In this document: positions 8,810-15,717 of the stretch, in pieces
Numbering within the stretch: the stretch's first letter is position 1
How the letters are laid out: every line of letters begins with the position of its first letter
Virus record (IMG/VR): IMGVR_UViG_2675903654_000020
Coordinates: 1-32,559 of that record
Reading direction: 5' to 3' (one strand)
Length of the DNA: 32,559 nt
From: a virus
Lineage: Duplodnaviria > Heunggongvirae > Uroviricota > Caudoviricetes
The notes under the pieces: model-generated
What the model saw: the letters and a program-made list of their open reading frames with translations, nothing else
Database searches by the model: none
What the model was told of the DNA's origin: nothing
Translations under genes and position numbers: made by a program

Positions 8810-9559
8810 ATGGCAAAACCGGACTGGGAGGCCATCGAATCGGCATACCGGGCCGGAGTCCTTAGCCTCCGTGATATAGGCGAGAAATACGGCGTAACAG
8901 AAGGGGCTATCAGGAAGAGGGCTAAAAAGCTTGGTTGGGTACGCAGTGGCGGTACGCAGGTTTGCAAAAATGGTACGCAAAAAAGAAAAGTGCGTACCAG
9001 CAGAAAGCCTGCCATTACTGGCCTTACACAAAAAGGTACGCAACCAAAAACAGAAGCTACACCGGATACGAAACCGATACGCGGAATGCGTACCGATCCC
9101 CCGACTAACCCATTCCAACCCGGTAACCAGCAGGCATTAAAACACGGTGGTTATGCCCGTCGCCTTCTGCTCAAAGATGAGGTGATAGAGGACGCTAAAG
9201 CGTTGACGCTCGAGGACGAATTATTTCGCCTTCGTGCTAACAACCTTGTCGCTGCAGAGAATATTGGTCGGTGGCTGGTGTCGCTGGAAGATGCTAATGG
9301 GGACCAGGAAAGGAAGATGCTGATGGAAAATATCAGCGCCGCCGAGAAAGCAATGATGCGCAATACAGTTCGTATTGAGTCCATCGTTGGCACGCTTGCG
9401 ACGGTAGGAAAAATATTTGCTGATACAGCCTACCGCAAGGCCGCCACTGATAAGGTGTCTCTGGAGGCTGATCGTCTTCGCCGTGATGCAGGTATTGATG
9501 ATGGCAATGGAGAGCGTGACCTCAATGACTTCTACTCTGACATCCAAACCGACGCTTAA
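8810..9559 (+). CDS. terminase small subunit
   Basis: N-terminal HTH-like region, immediately upstream of and overlapping the large terminase; AAGAGGA RBS. Confidence 0.7.
   Translation: MAKPDWEAIESAYRAGVLSLRDIGEKYGVTEGAIRKRAKKLGWVRSGGTQVCKNGTQKRKVRTSRKPAITGLTQKGTQPKTEATPDTKPIRGMRTDPPTNPFQPGNQQALKHGGYARRLLLKDEVIEDAKALTLEDELFRLRANNLVAAENIGRWLVSLEDANGDQERKMLMENISAAEKAMMRNTVRIESIVGTLATVGKIFADTAYRKAATDKVSLEADRLRRDAGIDDGNGERDLNDFYSDIQTDA
8938..9094. repeat. cluster of octamer repeats GGTACGCA (4 direct, 2 inverted) inside the small terminase gene; candidate pac-type recognition site
   Basis: GGTACGCA at 8938, 8951, 8972, 9035; TGCGTACC at 8991 and 9087. Confidence 0.4.
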
Positions 9560-10928
9560 TCCGGCTTTACGTAGTTTCTGGACTACGCGGGCACGTAACA
9601 AAGTGCTTTATGGTGGCCGGTCATCGTCAAAATCATGGGATGCCGCTGGCATTGCCATATTTCTGTCGAATAAATACACCCTGCGTTTTTGTTGTGCCCG
9701 TCAGATCCAGAACAAAATCGAAGAGTCGGTGTATACCCTGCTCAAAATTCAGATAGACAGGTTTGGCCTGCGGCACCGTTTCCGTATTCTGAACAACAAA
9801 ATCATTAACCGGGTTACTGGCTCGGAATTTGTTTTTTATGGATTATGGCGCAACATCGAAGAAATTAAGTCACTGGAGGGGATCGATGTGTTGTGGCTGG
9901 AAGAAGCCCACGCACTGACGGAATACCAGTGGAAAATTCTGGAGCCAACGATCCGTAAAGAGGGGTCGGAATGCTGGTTCATATTCAACCCCGGACTTGT
10001 TACTGATTTCGTCTGGCGCAACTTCGTTGTTGATCCGCCCGAAGGCACTCTCATCCGCAAAATTAACTATGACGAAAATCCGTTTCTGTCTGACACCATG
10101 CTTAAGGTTATCGACGCGGCGCGACGCCGTGATCCGGATGGTTTTAAACATGTGTATGAGGGCGTTCCGGAGTCTGATGATGATGCGGCAATCATCAAAC
10201 TGTCCTGGATAGAAGCCGCAGTGGATGCGCACAAAACGTTAAATTTCGAACCCAGTGGAAGAAAGCGTATTGGCTTTGACGTGGCTGACAGTGGTACAGA
10301 TAAGTGCGCTAACGTTTACCGTCACGGATCCGTTGTTTTCTGGGCCGACGAATGGAAGGCCAAAGAAGATGAATTACTGAAGAGCTGCCAGCGTACTTAT
10401 CAGGCGGCGCTGGAGCGTGAAGCAGATATTGTTTACGACTCTATCGGTGTTGGTGCGTCTGCCGGTGCTAAATTCTCTGAAATTAACGCTGACCGGAAGA
10501 GCGAGAATGCATACGCGAGACGAGTGAATTACCAGAGGTTTAACGCCGGTGCTGGTGTGCATGAGCCAGATGACGAATACAACGGCATCCCCAACAAAGA
10601 CTTTTTCGCAAATCTTAAGGCTCAGGCATGGTGGCTGGTGGCTGACCGTTTCAGAAATACGTTTAACGCCATTAACAACGGAGAACAGTATCCTGTGGAT
10701 GAGCTGATCAGCATAGATTCTAGTTGTCCGTTGCTTGAAAAGCTGAAACTGGAACTGACAACACCTCATCGCGATTTTGACCGTAACGGACGTGTGATGG
10801 TCGAAAGTAAAAAAGACCTCGCAAAACGCGAGATACCGTCACCAAACGTTGCTGACGCATTCATTATGGCCTTCGCGCCAATTGATACATCGCTGGATAT
10901 CTGGGAACAGCTGGGGAGACAGGCCTGA
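9501..10928 (+). CDS. terminase large subunit
   Basis: 476-503 aa ORF after terS with ATPase then nuclease-like organisation; start uncertain (in-frame ATGs at 9501, 9507, 9525; the track start at 9417 is upstream). Confidence 0.8.
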   Translation: MAMESVTSMTSTLTSKPTLNPALRSFWTTRARNKVLYGGRSSSKSWDAAGIAIFLSNKYTLRFCCARQIQNKIEESVYTLLKIQIDRFGLRHRFRILNNKIINRVTGSEFVFYGLWRNIEEIKSLEGIDVLWLEEAHALTEYQWKILEPTIRKEGSECWFIFNPGLVTDFVWRNFVVDPPEGTLIRKINYDENPFLSDTMLKVIDAARRRDPDGFKHVYEGVPESDDDAAIIKLSWIEAAVDAHKTLNFEPSGRKRIGFDVADSGTDKCANVYRHGSVVFWADEWKAKEDELLKSCQRTYQAALEREADIVYDSIGVGASAGAKFSEINADRKSENAYARRVNYQRFNAGAGVHEPDDEYNGIPNKDFFANLKAQAWWLVADRFRNTFNAINNGEQYPVDELISIDSSCPLLEKLKLELTTPHRDFDRNGRVMVESKKDLAKREIPSPNVADAFIMAFAPIDTSLDIWEQLGRQA

Positions 10929-12394
10929 TGGCACGAAACAAACAAGCCCTGCGGCGAACTGCGCAGGCCACAGCTGATGGTTATGAGAATTTTATTGCCC
11001 GCGTAGGGATGCAGACACCTAACCAGCACTCAGCATCCACCTACCGGGCTAATTTCACCAGTCGTAACCGCATGCTGGTGGAATGGTCCTATCGTTCGTC
11101 CTGGATCATCGGCGAAGCGGTCGATGCTATCCCAGATGATATGACCCGCAAAGGCATTCGCATCACTTCGGAAATTGATGCAAAAGATCGCGGCATTCTC
11201 GAATCACAACTGGATGAGTTGCAAATCTGGGATGCACTGAACGACGTGCTGAAATGGTCGCGCCTCTATGGCGGCGCGGTGGGTTTCATCATGATTGAGG
11301 GGCAGGCACCAATGACCCCTCTGCGACCCGAAACCATCGGTAAAGGCAAGTTTAAGGGCATTCTCCCGCTCGACCGCTGGATGATTGACCCGGTACTGAC
11401 CCGCCGCATTAAAGATATGGGGCCGGACCTGGGTAAACCTGAGTTTTATGATGTGGTGACCACAGCAACGGGAATTCCTGCCTGGCGCATTCATCACAGT
11501 CGCCTGATTCGCTTTGATGGCGTCACGCTGCCATTTCAGCAGAAGATGACCGAGAACGAATGGGGAATGTCGGTTGTAGAGCGTATCTGGGATCGTCTTA
11601 CCGCGTTCGACAGCGCTACTGTCGGTGCGGCGCAGCTGGTCTACAAGGCGCATTTGCGTACCTACAGCGTGGAGAAGCTACGCGAGCTTATCGCACTTGG
11701 TGGTCCTGCGTATGAAGCGTTGCTGAAGAATATTGACCTGATTCGACAGTTCCAGAGCAATGAAGGCATGACTCTCATGGACTCGCGGGATAAGTTTGAA
11801 ACCCATCAGTACAGCTTCAGTGGTCTGGATGACATCCTTTCACAGTTTGCAGAACAGATTAGTGGCGCTGTTGGTATCCCACTGGTGCGGTTGTTCGGAC
11901 AGTCCCCGAAGGGATTTTCTACCGGCGATGCAGACCTTGCCAACTATTACGACCGGGTAAGTTCGTTGCAGGAGAGGCGTTTACGTCTTCCGGTGCGGCG
12001 GATACTGGACATCATGCATCGTTCGGAACTTGGCAAGCCGCTCCCGGATGATTTTACATTTGAGTTTAACCCGCTCTGGCAAATGTCTGATGTCGATCGT
12101 TCAACGGTGGCATTAAATACCACCAACGCAATCAGTACAGCGCTGGGTGATGGTCTGATGACACTGAAAGCTGCTATGACCGATTTGCGCGAAAATTCTG
12201 ACGTAACCGGCATCGGGGCATCCATTACCGATGAGGACATAGAGAATGCCGAAGACGAAGCGCCGCCCGGCATCGGCGAACCTGATGACGAACCGCAGGA
12301 ACCGTCAGGCGGAAATCCGCTATCGAACCAGCCTACGCAGGATAGCGCGGGCGGTCGGGGACATCGTAAATGGTCGCTACGATGGTTCAAATGA
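10928..12394 (+). CDS. portal protein
   Basis: 488 aa ORF directly after terL (TGATG overlap), acidic C-terminus, followed by head morphogenesis gene. Confidence 0.7.
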   Translation: MARNKQALRRTAQATADGYENFIARVGMQTPNQHSASTYRANFTSRNRMLVEWSYRSSWIIGEAVDAIPDDMTRKGIRITSEIDAKDRGILESQLDELQIWDALNDVLKWSRLYGGAVGFIMIEGQAPMTPLRPETIGKGKFKGILPLDRWMIDPVLTRRIKDMGPDLGKPEFYDVVTTATGIPAWRIHHSRLIRFDGVTLPFQQKMTENEWGMSVVERIWDRLTAFDSATVGAAQLVYKAHLRTYSVEKLRELIALGGPAYEALLKNIDLIRQFQSNEGMTLMDSRDKFETHQYSFSGLDDILSQFAEQISGAVGIPLVRLFGQSPKGFSTGDADLANYYDRVSSLQERRLRLPVRRILDIMHRSELGKPLPDDFTFEFNPLWQMSDVDRSTVALNTTNAISTALGDGLMTLKAAMTDLRENSDVTGIGASITDEDIENAEDEAPPGIGEPDDEPQEPSGGNPLSNQPTQDSAGGRGHRKWSLRWFK

Positions 12395-13019
12395 CAGTAT
12401 CACGGAAATTATTGAGGCGCTGGAACGCTACAGTGAAATCATCACCCCCTGGGCGACAAAGGTCGCGGAAAACTTTACCGCCGATATTGTGCGCAAGAAT
12501 GATGAGCAGTGGCGTAAACACAGCAAAACCATCAGCCGTGAGCTACGCAATCTGGTAAACAGTGCCCCGCCAGGGCAGGTGATGAAATCCATCGTTGCTG
12601 AACAGGTTAAGTACATTAAATCGCTACCCCTCGAGGCGGCTGACAGGGTGTACGACATCCAGAATCGGGCGATTGAAGCTGTTGTGACCGGTGGGAGAGC
12701 GGAACATTTTGCTAAAGAAATAGCCGCATCGGGTGATATAGCAAAGTCCAGAGCTGACCTGATTGCCCGTACTGAACTTGGACGTGCAACCGGCGCGCTG
12801 GATCAGGCGCGTGCGCTGTCAATTGGTTCGAATGGTTATATCTGGCGTACAGCCGAAGATGGTGACGTCAGGCATTCTCATCGGGAAATGGAAGGTAAAT
12901 TTGTCGAATGGGGCAAACCTCCAACGCTTGACGGCATGACCGGTCACGCTGGCGAGCTCCCGAATTGTCGTTGTTATAAAGAAATCGTTTTTCCCTCCTC
13001 CCATTCTTATCCCGCCTGA
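12246..13019 (+). CDS. head morphogenesis protein, Mu F-like / SPP1 gp7 family (minor capsid)
   Basis: Basic N-terminus and conserved mid-region typical of Mu F-like proteins; overlaps portal 3' end by about 150 bp (alternative ATG at 12285). Confidence 0.6.
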   Translation: MPKTKRRPASANLMTNRRNRQAEIRYRTSLRRIARAVGDIVNGRYDGSNDSITEIIEALERYSEIITPWATKVAENFTADIVRKNDEQWRKHSKTISRELRNLVNSAPPGQVMKSIVAEQVKYIKSLPLEAADRVYDIQNRAIEAVVTGGRAEHFAKEIAASGDIAKSRADLIARTELGRATGALDQARALSIGSNGYIWRTAEDGDVRHSHREMEGKFVEWGKPPTLDGMTGHAGELPNCRCYKEIVFPSSHSYPA

Positions 13020-13033
13020 ATCGCAGGTAACCC

Positions 13034-14254
13034 ATGAAATATTTTTTCAATACCCGGCTGGGGGAAACCCGCTATCAGCTGGCTGACGGCTCGTTGCTGT
13101 GCAAAGACGTGCCGATAGGACGAACAGGTAAGCAGCTCTATGGTGCTGATGACCTGCCAAAACTGAAACCCGATAAGTTCGGTGAAATAGTCGTCACGCG
13201 TTCTCCCGAACAGGTATTTCATCCGGCCACGCTTGCCTCATTCGAAGGGATGAGCATCACGGTGCTGCATCCCGAGGATGAAAACGGGGATGTGCGGCTG
13301 GTAAATCCCGAGAACTGGAAAGAGCTTGCTGTCGGGCACCTCCAGAATGTCCGGCGCGGGACGGGTGAGCAGTCTGATTTGATGCTGGCTGACCTTATCG
13401 TCAAAGACGAAAACGCCATTCAGCTGATCGAAGATGGCCTGCGCGAAGTGTCGTGCGGCTATGACGCGGAGTATGAGCAGACCGAGCCAGGTAAAGCCGA
13501 GCAGGTCGATATTACCGGAAACCATGTGGCTCTTGTCCCTAAAGGCAGAGCCGGAAATCGTTGTGCAATTGGAGACAGAGACACAATGGCAAATCAAAAG
13601 AAAAGCTGGTGGACCCGCATGCGCACGGCCATCAAAACGGGTGACGCTGACACCATGAACGAACTGGTGGAGTCGGCTCCCGTATCGGTTACAGGAGATG
13701 AGGGGGATTTGCCGCAGGGCGTTAATCTCAACATCAACCTGTCCCCGCAGCAACCGCTACCGGACAAAGCACCAGAGATGGGCGGAGGTCCAACCGGCGA
13801 CAGTGATGATGACCTCAAAACATTACTGAAAGCCCTGCTGGCTAAGCTGGAAGGAAATGCGACGGGCGATAACGACAATAAGCCTGACGATAATCCGACC
13901 GGTGACGGCGAGGACGATGAAGAGGAAACCACGATTACTGGTGACTCAGCCTGGCGTGCCGAAGTTATCGTTCCGGGTATCGATCTGAGCCGTAAGATGA
14001 AACCGACCGCGTTCAAACGCGAGGTTCTGGCTTCTGCTGACAAAACGCTGGTTCGCCAGATAGTCGGTGATGCGGATATCCGCAAATTACCGAAACAATC
14101 GGTCGACATGGCGTTTAATGCCGTGTCTGAGATTGCCAAAGGGCGAAACACCAGCGCCACCACCGGCGATGCACAGCGCCCAAACATGGGCATGACCAGT
14201 ATCGCTTCCCTGAACAAACAAAACGCTGAATTCTGGGCAAACCGTAAAGGGTAA
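13034..14254 (+). CDS. putative prohead protease/scaffolding protein with acidic low-complexity linker
   Basis: Position between head morphogenesis and capsid genes; D/E-rich linker; function inferred from gene order. Confidence 0.45.
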   Translation: MKYFFNTRLGETRYQLADGSLLCKDVPIGRTGKQLYGADDLPKLKPDKFGEIVVTRSPEQVFHPATLASFEGMSITVLHPEDENGDVRLVNPENWKELAVGHLQNVRRGTGEQSDLMLADLIVKDENAIQLIEDGLREVSCGYDAEYEQTEPGKAEQVDITGNHVALVPKGRAGNRCAIGDRDTMANQKKSWWTRMRTAIKTGDADTMNELVESAPVSVTGDEGDLPQGVNLNINLSPQQPLPDKAPEMGGGPTGDSDDDLKTLLKALLAKLEGNATGDNDNKPDDNPTGDGEDDEEETTITGDSAWRAEVIVPGIDLSRKMKPTAFKREVLASADKTLVRQIVGDADIRKLPKQSVDMAFNAVSEIAKGRNTSATTGDAQRPNMGMTSIASLNKQNAEFWANRKG

Positions 14255-14775: not shown

Positions 14776-15717
14776 ATGATTACTTTTGATCAGGCAACCG
14801 TTGACAACTCTGGTGCCTTTCTCATCGGGGAGCTGGAGCGACTCGACCAGACGCTGAACCTGCCACTGGTGGGGTACACCTGGACCCGCGATATTCAGTT
14901 GCGTGAAGATGTCTCTATCGCAGATGACATTTCCAGCTGGACGAATACCAGCTTCGCCGCTGCGGGTACTGGTGCAAATCCGAATGGCAAAAACTGGGTA
15001 GGCAAAGACTCAACCGCTATTGCTGGCGTGAACGTGGATATCGGCAAATCCGGTAACCCGCTGAACCTTTGGGGGATGGAACTTGGCTGGACGGTCATAG
15101 AATTGCAGGCTGCTCAGCAGATCGGACGCCCGATTGATACGCAGAAGTATGACGGGATGCAACTGAAATGGCAGATGGATAACGATGAACAGGTATATGT
15201 TGGCGATTCCGCATTAAACCTGAAAGGTCTTGTTACCCTGGACGGCGTGCCTGTCAACAACGCTGCCAAAACGTGGGCAACCTCAACACCGGACGAAATC
15301 CGCGCAAGCATTAACCAGGTGCTGTCTGATGCGTGGGCCGCTTCCGGTTACTCTGTGGTTCCGCGTGATTTGCTGATCCCGCCTGAGCAGTTTGCTCTGT
15401 TGTCCAGCATCATCGTTTCATCTGCGGGTAACCAGTCCCTGTTGACGTACCTTCAGACCAACACCATCAGCTATCACCAGAACGGTATTCCGCTGAATAT
15501 CCGCGCGGTTAAATGGCTGAAAGGCCGTGGTGTGGGGAATAAGGATCGCATGGTTGCGTACACCAACGATAAAAAATACGTCCGCTACCCGCTGGTTCCG
15601 CTTCAGAGCGTGCCGGTGCAGTATCGCGGTCTGTATCAGATCGTCACTTACTACGGCAAGCTGGGTGCAGTCGAGCCAGTGTACAAAGAAACCATTTCGT
15701 ACGTTGATGGCATTTAA
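14776..15717 (+). CDS. major capsid protein (putative)
   Basis: 313 aa ORF with strong AAGGA RBS in the head module; hairpin immediately downstream. Confidence 0.55.
   Translation: MITFDQATVDNSGAFLIGELERLDQTLNLPLVGYTWTRDIQLREDVSIADDISSWTNTSFAAAGTGANPNGKNWVGKDSTAIAGVNVDIGKSGNPLNLWGMELGWTVIELQAAQQIGRPIDTQKYDGMQLKWQMDNDEQVYVGDSALNLKGLVTLDGVPVNNAAKTWATSTPDEIRASINQVLSDAWAASGYSVVPRDLLIPPEQFALLSSIIVSSAGNQSLLTYLQTNTISYHQNGIPLNIRAVKWLKGRGVGNKDRMVAYTNDKKYVRYPLVPLQSVPVQYRGLYQIVTYYGKLGAVEPVYKETISYVDGI

What the first reader, a model, noticed from the sequence alone, without database searches (positions are those of the whole stretch)
12246..12394. Unusually long overlap between portal and head morphogenesis genes
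The Mu-F-like gene (ATG 12246) overlaps the portal 3' end by about 150 bp in a different frame. Either the overlap is real, or the head morphogenesis gene starts later (ATG 12285 still overlaps), or the portal C-terminal tail (ending GGRGHRKWSLRWFK) is an artefactual extension.
Basis: seen in the sequence. Interest (0 to 1): 0.2.

Follow-up and report, generated by a model that had tools for sequence, protein, structure and literature searches.

The report
Real 149-base portal/MuF gene overlap
Two neighbouring phage head genes (portal and MuF-like minor head protein) share 149 bases read in two frames, selection keeps both readings across dozens of related prophages, and annotation pipelines routinely shorten the second gene to avoid the overlap.

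Summary
The portal ORF (10928-12394) and the MuF ORF (12246-13019) overlap by 149 nt, with MuF in the +1 frame. It is not an assembly artefact: all 95 distinct related loci from Escherichia, Shigella, Salmonella, Citrobacter, Hafnia, Pantoea, Erwinia, Yersinia and Xenorhabdus keep a 149-158 nt overlap.

The MuF start is ATG 12246, not 12285. The ATG/GTG and the GAGGA 8 nt upstream are held invariant at portal-synonymous positions, and a TAG closes the frame just upstream. ATG 12285 exists in only 8 of 31 representatives.

The portal tail is not neutral read-through. MuF codons Y45-D46-G47 are TAC-GAT-GGT in 31/31 representatives, which fixes the portal residues R-W-F. MuF codons just past the portal stop vary freely.

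Site-class rates give omega of about 0.15 for the MuF N-terminus and about 0.45 for the portal tail, both significantly below 1. More distant relatives have 1-19 nt overlaps or short gaps, so the long overlap is derived, probably by overprinting.

This is an ordinary kind of thing (a dual-coding phage gene overlap). It is a clean, undescribed instance that is systematically mis-annotated.

The parts
10928..12394 (+). Portal gene (488 aa, Phage_portal_3/DUF1073 family); stop TGA at 12392-12394
   Evidence: ORF. PF06381 at 354 bits. phrog_146 portal. Closest solved portals are Pam3 8hds and 9jlf/9l01, aligned only to residue ~413-452.
12246..13019 (+). MuF-like minor head / head morphogenesis gene (257 aa), starting at ATG 12246
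   Evidence: ORF. PF04233. phrog_324. tblastn matches from residue 1 in loci down to 44-57% identity. The N-terminus is homologous to non-overlapping relatives.
12233..12237 (+). GAGGA Shine-Dalgarno for MuF, 8 nt before the ATG, embedded in portal codons D435-E436-D437
   Evidence: Sequence. Portal E436 is GAG in 29/29 (never GAA), with one K=AAG, so the third base is G in 30/30.
12240..12242 (+). TAG in the MuF frame, which makes ATG 12246 the first possible MuF start in the window
   Evidence: MuF frame open from 12243.
12246..12394 (+). Dual-coding overlap (149 nt): MuF residues 1-49 and portal residues 440-488
12246..12305 (+). Overlap part 1. Basic, poorly conserved MuF N-terminus (MPKTKRRPASANLMTNRRNR) lies over the acidic portal linker (AEDEAPPGIGEPDDEPQEPS). 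The portal motif AE.E.PP is ancestral.
   Evidence: dN/dS is 0.74 for MuF and 0.48 for portal. The EAExxxPP motif is present in distant portals.
12306..12394 (+). Overlap part 2. Conserved MuF segment QAEIRYRTSLRRIARAVGDIVNGRYDGSN lies over the portal tail GGNPLSNQPTQDSAGGRGHRKWSLRWFK*.
   Evidence: MuF omega 0.15-0.17 and portal omega 0.42-0.47, with both 95% CIs below 1.
12377..12391 (+). Portal C-terminal motif L-R-W-F-K, encoded by the same bases as MuF Y45-D46-G47-S48 (12378-12389)
   Evidence: TAC/GAT/GGT are invariant in 31/31 representatives, while N49/D50/S51 just past the portal stop use 2-5 codons each. Single-codon columns are 1/140 outside the overlap versus 4/14 for MuF and 6/9 for portal inside it.
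12285..12287 (+). Alternative ATG, used as the MuF start by NCBI PGAP in E. coli genomes; probably not the main start
   Evidence: Annotated start. ATG here in only 8/31 representatives, with no start codon nearby in the Yersinia, Hafnia psychrotolerans-type or Xenorhabdus loci. No SD-like sequence upstream.

Best explanation
This is a real, evolutionarily maintained out-of-frame overlap of two translated genes.

Shown by comparative evidence:
- The portal is translated to TGA 12392-12394.
- MuF is initiated independently inside the portal gene at ATG 12246, from a GAGGA placed 8 nt upstream within the portal's conserved D-E-D-I-E codons.
- In the first ~60 nt both products are loosely constrained linkers. 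An acidic portal linker read in +1 gives a basic MuF N-terminus.
- In the last ~90 nt the MuF frame carries a conserved, ancestral N-terminal segment. The portal frame carries a more weakly constrained tail that ends in a conserved L-R-W-F motif.

Inferred:
- The arrangement arose in an Enterobacterales-associated lineage from an ancestor with the usual 4-8 nt portal/MuF overlap in the same relative frame.
- The ancestor lost the original portal linker, tail and stop, so the portal now reads over the MuF 5' region (overprinting).
- Initiating MuF inside a translated ORF may help keep MuF at a low level relative to the portal. This would fit MuF being a low-copy, portal-bound head protein, as in SPP1.
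- The tail lies beyond the C-terminal crown, which faces the capsid interior in known portals. It probably acts as a short docking or assembly peptide.
For: Overlap kept in every relative:
- It is present in 95/95 distinct loci: 149 nt in 70, 152 in 22, 155 in 1 and 158 in 2. These span at least nine named genera.

Start at 12246:
- There is an ATG in 28/31 and a GTG in 3/31 representatives at the aligned codon.
- Portal codon 440 is AAT/GAT/AGT, so its third base is T in 30/30 although the amino acid varies among N, D and S. Portal E436 is always GAG.
- In several loci, including the window, an in-frame stop lies immediately upstream.
- Non-overlapping distant MuF proteins start with a similar MP..basic..AE.RY..LR.IAR.VG N-terminus.

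MuF frame selected:
- dN/dS is 0.22 for residues 21-49.
- dNS/dS(neutral) is 0.145, 95% CI 0.07-0.24.

Portal frame selected:
- The MuF-synonymous, portal-nonsynonymous rate is 0.57, against 1.35 at MuF synonymous sites outside the overlap. The ratio is 0.42, CI 0.27-0.66.
- dNN/dNS is 0.47, CI 0.31-0.77.
- Among amino-acid-invariant degenerate columns, a single codon is used in 1/140 outside the overlap, versus 4/14 (MuF) and 6/9 (portal) inside it. Permutation gave 0 of 20,000 draws, so P<5e-5.
- The constraint is punctate and stops exactly at the portal stop.
- The one variable base in the portal Leu codon gives only Leu or Ile.

Other points:
- There is no RNA structure signal, z=+0.21.
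- The overlap is derived. Thirty portal-MuF junctions in more distant relatives (MuF 26-48% identical to the window's in the five genome loci; portals 24-52%) have overlaps of 1-19 nt or gaps.
- Portal homology to the window ends at residue ~442-469 in most of them.
- The prototype phages also overlap these genes as annotated: Mu by 20 nt and SPP1 by 44 nt.
Against: - There is no direct protein or ribosome-profiling evidence for either end.
- MuF residues 2-20 are only weakly constrained (dN/dS 0.74-0.83). Their translation rests on the conserved start codon, the SD and the basic composition rather than on sequence conservation.
- In 22-23 of 31 representatives a TTG or ATG at codon 13/14 could serve as an additional start.
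- Given MuF x-Y-D-G-S, the portal frame can only read [LIV]-[R/stop]-[W/R]-[FLIV]. Part of the L-R-W-F pattern is therefore forced by MuF, and the pairwise statistics are not phylogenetically independent.
- The proposed function of the tail and the expression-level rationale are inferences.
Confidence: 0.85

Rival explanations
1. MuF really starts later: at ATG 12285 as PGAP annotates, or at the 12411/12489 equivalents as the phage records annotate. The overlap would then be shorter (110 nt) or absent.
For: Annotators chose these starts. Position 12282-12285 corresponds roughly to where distant MuF proteins start relative to the AE.RY motif. MuF residues 2-13 are poorly conserved.
Against: - ATG 12285 occurs in only 8/31 representatives.
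- The Yersinia, Hafnia psychrotolerans-type and Xenorhabdus loci have no start codon between codon 1 and positions inside or beyond the conserved segment.
- Codon 12411 is ATT in the window, and the conserved MuF segment 21-49 lies upstream of it.
- The start codon and SD at 12246 are kept at portal-synonymous sites.
- No SD precedes 12285.
Confidence: 0.07
2. The portal tail is translated but functionless read-through, or is a sequencing/frameshift artefact. Its conservation would be a passive by-product of selection on MuF.
For: The tail lies beyond the region aligned to any solved portal and is low-complexity. MuF is the more strongly constrained frame. The MuF motif YDGS restricts what the portal frame can read.
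Against: - An artefact is excluded by identical architecture in 95 independent loci.
- Passive conservation does not explain invariant MuF-synonymous bases (TAC/GAT/GGT in 31/31, ATA in 31/31, CTA in 30/31) when synonymous sites elsewhere have pS about 0.63 and codons just after the portal stop vary.
- dNN/dNS is 0.47, with P(>=1)=0.0025.
Confidence: 0.06
3. The extra constraint on MuF-synonymous sites comes from a nucleotide-level element (an RNA structure, a regulatory or packaging site), not from the portal protein.
For: Invariant bases alone cannot distinguish protein-level from nucleotide-level selection.
Against: - There is no thermodynamic signal for structure in 12200-12420: z=+0.21, and 118/200 shuffles fold as well.
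- The constraint is punctate at portal first codon positions and ends at the portal stop codon.
- The variable base in the portal Leu codon gives only Leu or Ile.
Confidence: 0.04
4. A programmed +1 ribosomal frameshift in the overlap makes a portal-MuF fusion protein.
For: MuF is exactly in the +1 frame of the portal. Portal-MuF fusion proteins exist elsewhere, since the 717-position profile phrog_2662 'portal protein' matches MuF at positions 495-709.
Against: - MuF has its own conserved start codon and SD.
- No conserved shift-prone site was seen.
- The portal stop context varies: TGA, CGA-TAG one codon later, TAA one codon earlier in Yersinia, and four codons later in Xenorhabdus.
- None of the 150 portal representatives carries a MuF domain.
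Confidence: 0.03

Closest known systems
Bacillus phage SPP1 gene 6 (portal) / gene 7 (MuF-like gp7)
   Same: The gene order is the same, with the MuF-family gene immediately after the portal. The annotated genes overlap by 44 nt. gp7 binds the portal and is present at 1-2 copies per capsid (PMC5576092).
   Different: The overlap here is over three times longer and was tested for dual selection. The portal belongs to a different Pfam family (PF06381). Binding of this MuF to this portal has not been tested.
Phage Mu gp29 (portal H) / gp30 (F, the MuF prototype)
   Same: The order is portal then MuF, followed by the protease and major head genes. The annotated overlap is 20 nt.
   Different: The overlap is short and typical of translational coupling. 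No overprinted portal tail is known.
Nearest non-overlapping relatives (environmental viral contigs L111-L142; Sulfuricella, Desulfomicrobium and Gallionella MAG prophages)
   Same: They carry a homologous portal (39-50% identity) and MuF. The relative frame is the same (+1) in most. The portal motif ..DEDIE.AE...PP and the MuF N-terminal segment are both present.
   Different: The portal stop lies 1-19 nt into MuF or before it. The portal tail is separately encoded, and in 16 of 25 it ends ...[DE][RK][LI]x[AD]W[LIV][NK]G.
Classical overprinted phage genes (phiX174 overlapping genes, MS2 lysis gene, lambda Rz/Rz1); from my own knowledge, not tested here
   Same: Same-strand, out-of-frame dual coding with both products functional. 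One frame is older and more constrained than the other.
   Different: Here only the termini of two otherwise separate structural genes overlap. No entire gene is embedded.
Portal proteins with C-terminal extensions or fusions
   Same: The portal C-terminus is a variable, extendable end. 107 of 150 family representatives exceed 600 aa. L026 and L029 carry PBECR1 nuclease and InPase domains.
   Different: Here the extension is only about 40 residues with no domain, and it is encoded over the next gene.

Membership tests
Phage_portal_3 (PF06381, formerly DUF1073) portal proteins | Match to the family HMM above the gathering score | tested here: met
   354.4 bits against a cutoff of 33.8, residues 55-402. 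phrog_146 portal at E=3.5e-174.
Phage_portal_3 (PF06381, formerly DUF1073) portal proteins | Position in the head module between the large terminase and the MuF, protease and major head genes | tested here: met
   TerL 9417-10928, portal 10928-12394, MuF, protease-like DUF2213 13034-14254, major head 14776-15717.
Phage_Mu_F (PF04233) minor head / head morphogenesis proteins | Match to the family HMM above the gathering score | tested here: met
   64.4 bits against a cutoff of 29.6, residues 137-243. phrog_324 head morphogenesis at E=2e-90.
Phage_Mu_F (PF04233) minor head / head morphogenesis proteins | Gene immediately downstream of the portal gene (context used by Jamet et al. 2017, PMC5576092) | tested here: met
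Phage_Mu_F (PF04233) minor head / head morphogenesis proteins | Physical binding to the portal and presence in the capsid (shown for SPP1 gp7) | not testable with these tools
   No experimental data for this phage group was found.
Functional out-of-frame overlapping (dual-coding) gene pair | Both reading frames stay open over the shared stretch in all relatives | tested here: met
   95/95 distinct loci, overlap 149-158 nt. The chance expectation for one sequence is 0.047.
Functional out-of-frame overlapping (dual-coding) gene pair | The downstream gene has its own conserved start codon and ribosome-binding site inside the upstream gene | tested here: met
   ATG/GTG in 31/31. The third base of portal codon 440 is T in 30/30, and E436 is GAG in 29/29.
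Functional out-of-frame overlapping (dual-coding) gene pair | Purifying selection detectable in each frame separately | tested here: met
   MuF omega 0.15-0.17 and portal tail omega 0.42-0.47, with bootstrap CIs below 1. There is an excess of invariant synonymous sites.
Functional out-of-frame overlapping (dual-coding) gene pair | Direct evidence that both products contain the overlap-encoded residues (MS, N-terminal sequencing, ribosome profiling) | not testable with these tools
   The SEN34 paper contains no mass spectrometry.
Programmed +1 frameshift fusion | A conserved shift site or stop context, and no independent initiation signals for the downstream frame | tested here: not met
   The stop context varies. 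An independent SD and ATG are conserved.
Assembly or annotation artefact (frameshift error extending the portal) | Close homologues have the portal ending before the MuF start | tested here: not met
   0 of 95 loci in the clade. Only distant relatives, whose portal tails differ in sequence, end earlier.

The most novel reading that the evidence does not exclude
The portal tail is a de novo, overprinted sequence. After the ancestral portal linker, Trp-containing C-terminal peptide (...ERLKAWLNG*) and stop were lost, the portal read into the MuF 5' region. The +2 reading of the conserved MuF D-G-S codons (GAT GGT TC) already spelled R-W-F there. Selection then fixed L-R-W-F as a functional replacement for the lost peptide. 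This would be a documented case of a structural-protein motif re-created by overprinting on the neighbouring, interacting gene.
Probability: 0.3. Interest if true: 0.55.

Novelty: new member of a known kind. Interest (0 to 1): 0.3.

Why it matters
Overlaps longer than about 60 nt in prokaryotic annotations are usually treated as mispredictions, and pipelines trim them. Four different MuF starts are in use for essentially the same gene: 12246, 12285, and the equivalents of 12411 and 12489. The last three remove 13, 55 and 81 residues, including the most conserved N-terminal segment. The gene occurs in 382 of the 5426 complete E. coli genomes searched.

The case gives a clean comparative example with both ancestral (non-overlapping) and derived (overlapping) states available. 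It shows how a portal tail can be encoded over the next gene. It also points to a short conserved C-terminal portal peptide (L-R-W-F) as a candidate interaction motif in head assembly.

It does not change any general principle.

Tried and rejected
- RNA structure as the cause of the synonymous constraint: the fold of 12200-12420 is no better than shuffles.
- Portal-MuF fusion among close portal homologues: an HMM built from the MuF alignment found no MuF domain in the 150 best portal representatives. A fusion profile, phrog_2662, exists in PHROGs.
- A universal C-terminal Trp motif in the PF06381 family: not supported. Among the 150 representatives the tails are very diverse, and 107 are long extensions. 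The motif is common only in the nearest non-overlapping relatives.
- Literature: searches for portal/MuF overlap, overprinting and SEN34 gave nothing on this overlap and no proteomics.
- The minus-strand ORF 11947..12390 (147 aa) and the third-frame ORF 12370..12558 (62 aa) were not pursued. The ATG at 12370 is absent in SEN34, one of the five relatives aligned, and nothing suggests either is a gene.
- I did not run structure prediction. A single-sequence model would be poor, and the tail lies outside all solved homologues.

Full report
**1. The observation**

The window holds a portal ORF at 10928..12394 (488 aa, ending GGRGHRKWSLRWFK*) and a MuF-like ORF at 12246..13019 (257 aa). They share 149 nt, 12246-12394. 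The MuF frame is +1 relative to the portal frame.

Pfam assigns the first ORF to Phage_portal_3 (PF06381, 354 bits, residues 55-402) and the second to Phage_Mu_F (PF04233, 64 bits, residues 137-243). PHROGs agrees and identifies the next gene (13034-14254, DUF2213) as a head maturation protease.

All other junctions in this module are tight. TerL and the portal share 1 nt, and MuF and the protease are 14 nt apart. The 149-nt overlap stands out.

In the portal frame downstream of the portal stop, stops occur at 6% of codons. A 49-codon open run has P of about 0.05 in a single sequence.

**2. Not an assembly artefact**

- The 2.2-kb region is 98% identical to four induced E. coli phages and 79-86% identical to Citrobacter, Salmonella (SEN34, genus Brunovirus) and Hafnia phages.
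- It occurs in 382 of 5426 complete E. coli genomes.
- Scans of GTDB genomes and IMG/VR gave 105 more loci.
- In all 95 distinct loci of this clade both frames are open. MuF identity to the window falls to 55%, and the hosts include Shimwellia, Pantoea, Dryocola, Erwinia, Xenorhabdus, Yersinia and Hafnia.
- The overlap is 149 nt in 70 loci, 152 in 22, 155 in 1 and 158 in 2.

**3. Annotators disagree**

- NCBI PGAP starts MuF at the equivalent of 12285.
- The SEN34 and Hafnia yong1 records start it at the equivalent of 12411, which is ATT in the window.
- vB_EcoM-606R2 starts it at a GTG equivalent to 12489.
- None uses 12246.

**4. Where MuF starts**

- In 31 representatives (under 97% nucleotide identity to each other) the aligned first codon is ATG in 28 and GTG in 3 (Yersinia).
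- This start is made from the third base of portal codon 440 plus the first two bases of the invariant Ala441.
- Codon 440 is AAT (21), GAT (6) or AGT (3). The amino acid changes, but the third base is T in 30/30, although each of these amino acids also has a C-ending codon.
- The GAGGA at 12233-12237, 8 nt upstream, depends on portal Glu436 being GAG. It is GAG in 29/29, plus one Lys AAG, while other Glu codons nearby use both GAA and GAG.
- In the window a TAG at 12240-12242 closes the MuF frame, so 12246 is the first possible start.
- ATG 12285 exists in only 8/31 representatives.
- The Yersinia, Hafnia psychrotolerans-type and Xenorhabdus loci have no start codon between codon 1 and positions inside or beyond the conserved segment.
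- Distant MuF proteins that do not overlap their portal gene align from their own N-termini: MP..basic..AE.RY..LR.IAR.VG.IV..DG.

**5. Which frames are under selection**

Nei-Gojobori estimates over all pairs of representatives:

| Frame and region | dN | dS | dN/dS |
|---|---|---|---|
| MuF residues 21-49 (overlap) | 0.12 | 0.56 | 0.22 |
| MuF outside the overlap | | 1.38 | |
| Portal residues 460-488 (overlap) | 0.20 | 0.22 | |
| Portal outside the overlap | | 1.32 | |

Both frames therefore lose synonymous change in the overlap, as expected for dual coding.

I then separated sites by their effect in each frame (an OLGenie-like count):

| Site class | Rate |
|---|---|
| dNN (nonsynonymous in both) | 0.096 |
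| dNS (MuF-nonsynonymous, portal-synonymous) | 0.197 |
| dSN (MuF-synonymous, portal-nonsynonymous) | 0.571 |
| Neutral reference | 1.35 |

Bootstrapping codons gives these estimates:

| Frame | Ratio | Median | 95% CI |
|---|---|---|---|
| MuF | dNS/dS | 0.145 | 0.07-0.24 |
| MuF | dNN/dSN | 0.167 | |
| Portal tail | dSN/dS | 0.42 | 0.27-0.66 |
| Portal tail | dNN/dNS | 0.47 | 0.31-0.77 |

For the portal dNN/dNS ratio, P(>=1) is 0.0025.

The first 20 MuF codons and portal residues 440-459 are loosely constrained in both frames (dN/dS 0.74 and 0.48).

**6. The constraint is punctate and protein-like**

- MuF Y45-D46-G47 are TAC-GAT-GGT in 31/31 representatives.
- I33 is ATA in 31/31, L30 is CTA in 30/31 and Y26 is TAT in 28/28.
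- These third positions are the first positions of portal R485, W486, F487, S473, T470 and S466.
- Immediately after the portal stop, MuF N49, D50 and S51 use 2-5 codons each in near-equal proportions.
- Among amino-acid-invariant degenerate columns, a single codon is used in 1 of 140 outside the overlap, but in 4 of 14 (MuF) and 6 of 9 (portal) inside it. Permutation gave 0 of 20,000 draws, so P<5e-5.
- The variable base in the portal Leu484 codon yields only CTA, TTA or ATA, that is Leu, Leu or Ile.
- The region has no RNA-folding signal, z=+0.21.

The tail is therefore selected as protein, more weakly than MuF, with a conserved ..SN..T.DS....L-R-W-F end.

One caveat applies. Given MuF x-Y-D-G-S, the portal frame can only read [LIV]-[R/stop]-[W/R]-[FLIV]. 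MuF forces part of the motif, and the evidence for portal selection is the choice among MuF-synonymous codons.

**7. Origin**

- A second IMG/VR scan seeded with a Sulfuricella MuF gave 34 environmental loci.
- All those tested encode a homologous portal (39-50% identity) just upstream of MuF. Homology to the window portal ends at residue ~442-469 in most.
- Of the 34, 25 have an identifiable upstream portal end. Together with five distant genome loci that gives 30 junctions.
- In all 30 the portal stop lies 1-19 nt inside MuF (most often 8 nt, in the same +1 relative frame) or upstream of it. The long overlap is therefore derived.
- The portal motif DEDIE.AE...PP is ancestral, so in overlap part 1 MuF is the newcomer.
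- The MuF segment AE.RY...DG is ancestral, so in part 2 the portal is the newcomer.
- In 16 of 25 distant loci, and in L027, the separately encoded portal tail ends ...[DE][RK][LI]x[AD]W[LIV][NK]G.
- Read past the stop, the +2 frame of distant MuF genes is full of stops. It already spells R-W-F where MuF has D-G-S encoded GAT GGT TC, as in L122.

I infer overprinting after loss of the original tail and stop. Whether L-R-W-F functionally replaces the older Trp motif is a hypothesis.

**8. Comparison with known systems**

- muf genes lie immediately downstream of portal genes, and SPP1 gp7 binds the portal at 1-2 copies per capsid (PMC5576092).
- The annotated prototypes also overlap: Mu gp29/gp30 by 20 nt and SPP1 genes 6/7 by 44 nt.
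- The present case is the same arrangement taken further, with both frames demonstrably constrained.
- A +1 frameshift fusion is unlikely. MuF has independent initiation signals, the portal stop context varies, and no MuF domain occurs in 150 portal representatives.
- I found nothing in the searchable literature on this overlap.

**9. Verdict**

The overlap is real and conserved, and both readings are functional. MuF should be annotated from 12246 and the portal to 12394.

It is a new, well-supported member of a known kind of feature. The main practical consequence is a correction of widespread start-site annotation. A modest evolutionary interest attaches to the overprinted portal tail.

Noticed in passing
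L026:151-2376 and L029:657-2462; P0003-P0150: Portals of this family often carry large C-terminal extensions. L026 has a PBECR1 nuclease domain and L029 an InPase domain. 107 of the 150 best family representatives exceed 600 aa, up to 1779 aa. The portal C-terminus appears to be a hot spot for cargo or polyvalent-protein fusions.
   Followed up: partly
window 8810-10928: The terminase module is mosaic relative to the closest E. coli prophage. From the portal onward the DNA is 98.5% identical. The window's TerL, however, shares only 37% identity, and only in its C-terminal half, with the 540-aa TerL of strain FDAARGOS_144. The TerS genes also differ: 249 aa here against 190 aa there. The recombination junction lies near the TerL 3' end.
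   Followed up: partly
window 9417-9559: The TerL ORF is open from 9417, while the small-terminase ORF ends at 9559. Another overlap of up to 143 nt is possible, depending on the true TerL start. In-frame stops at 9321, 9354 and 9405 exclude an earlier start.
   Followed up: no
NZ_CP148474.1 (hit H21): In one E. coli genome PGAP names the same portal homologue 'anti-CBASS protein Acb1 family protein' instead of 'DUF1073 domain-containing protein'. This looks like a naming-rule problem rather than biology.
   Followed up: no
L019:2501-2719 (Apirhabdus apintestini): The MuF gene is interrupted after about 70 codons (..ITPGRRR*), although the portal/MuF overlap is intact. It is probably a decaying prophage.
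   Followed up: no
L018:859-2613 (Xenorhabdus bharatensis): The portal has a different, roughly 60-residue longer segment before the overlap (..AERIMGSVGNGF..). It still reads through the MuF 5' region in the same frame, to ..FLRWFQRFGD*. The shared tail is therefore retained across a mosaic joint.
   Followed up: partly
window 12246-12305: There is a charge inversion between the two frames. The acidic portal linker AEDEAPPGIGEPDDEPQEPS, read in +1, gives the basic MuF N-terminus PKTKRRPASANLMTNRRNR. This follows directly from GAN-rich codons. The basic character is kept in all relatives although the sequence is not.
   Followed up: partly
window 11947-12390 (minus strand) and 12370-12558 (plus strand, third frame): Mechanical ORFs of 147 aa and 62 aa lie over the same region. 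Nothing suggests they are genes. The ATG at 12370 is absent in SEN34, one of the five relatives aligned.
   Followed up: no
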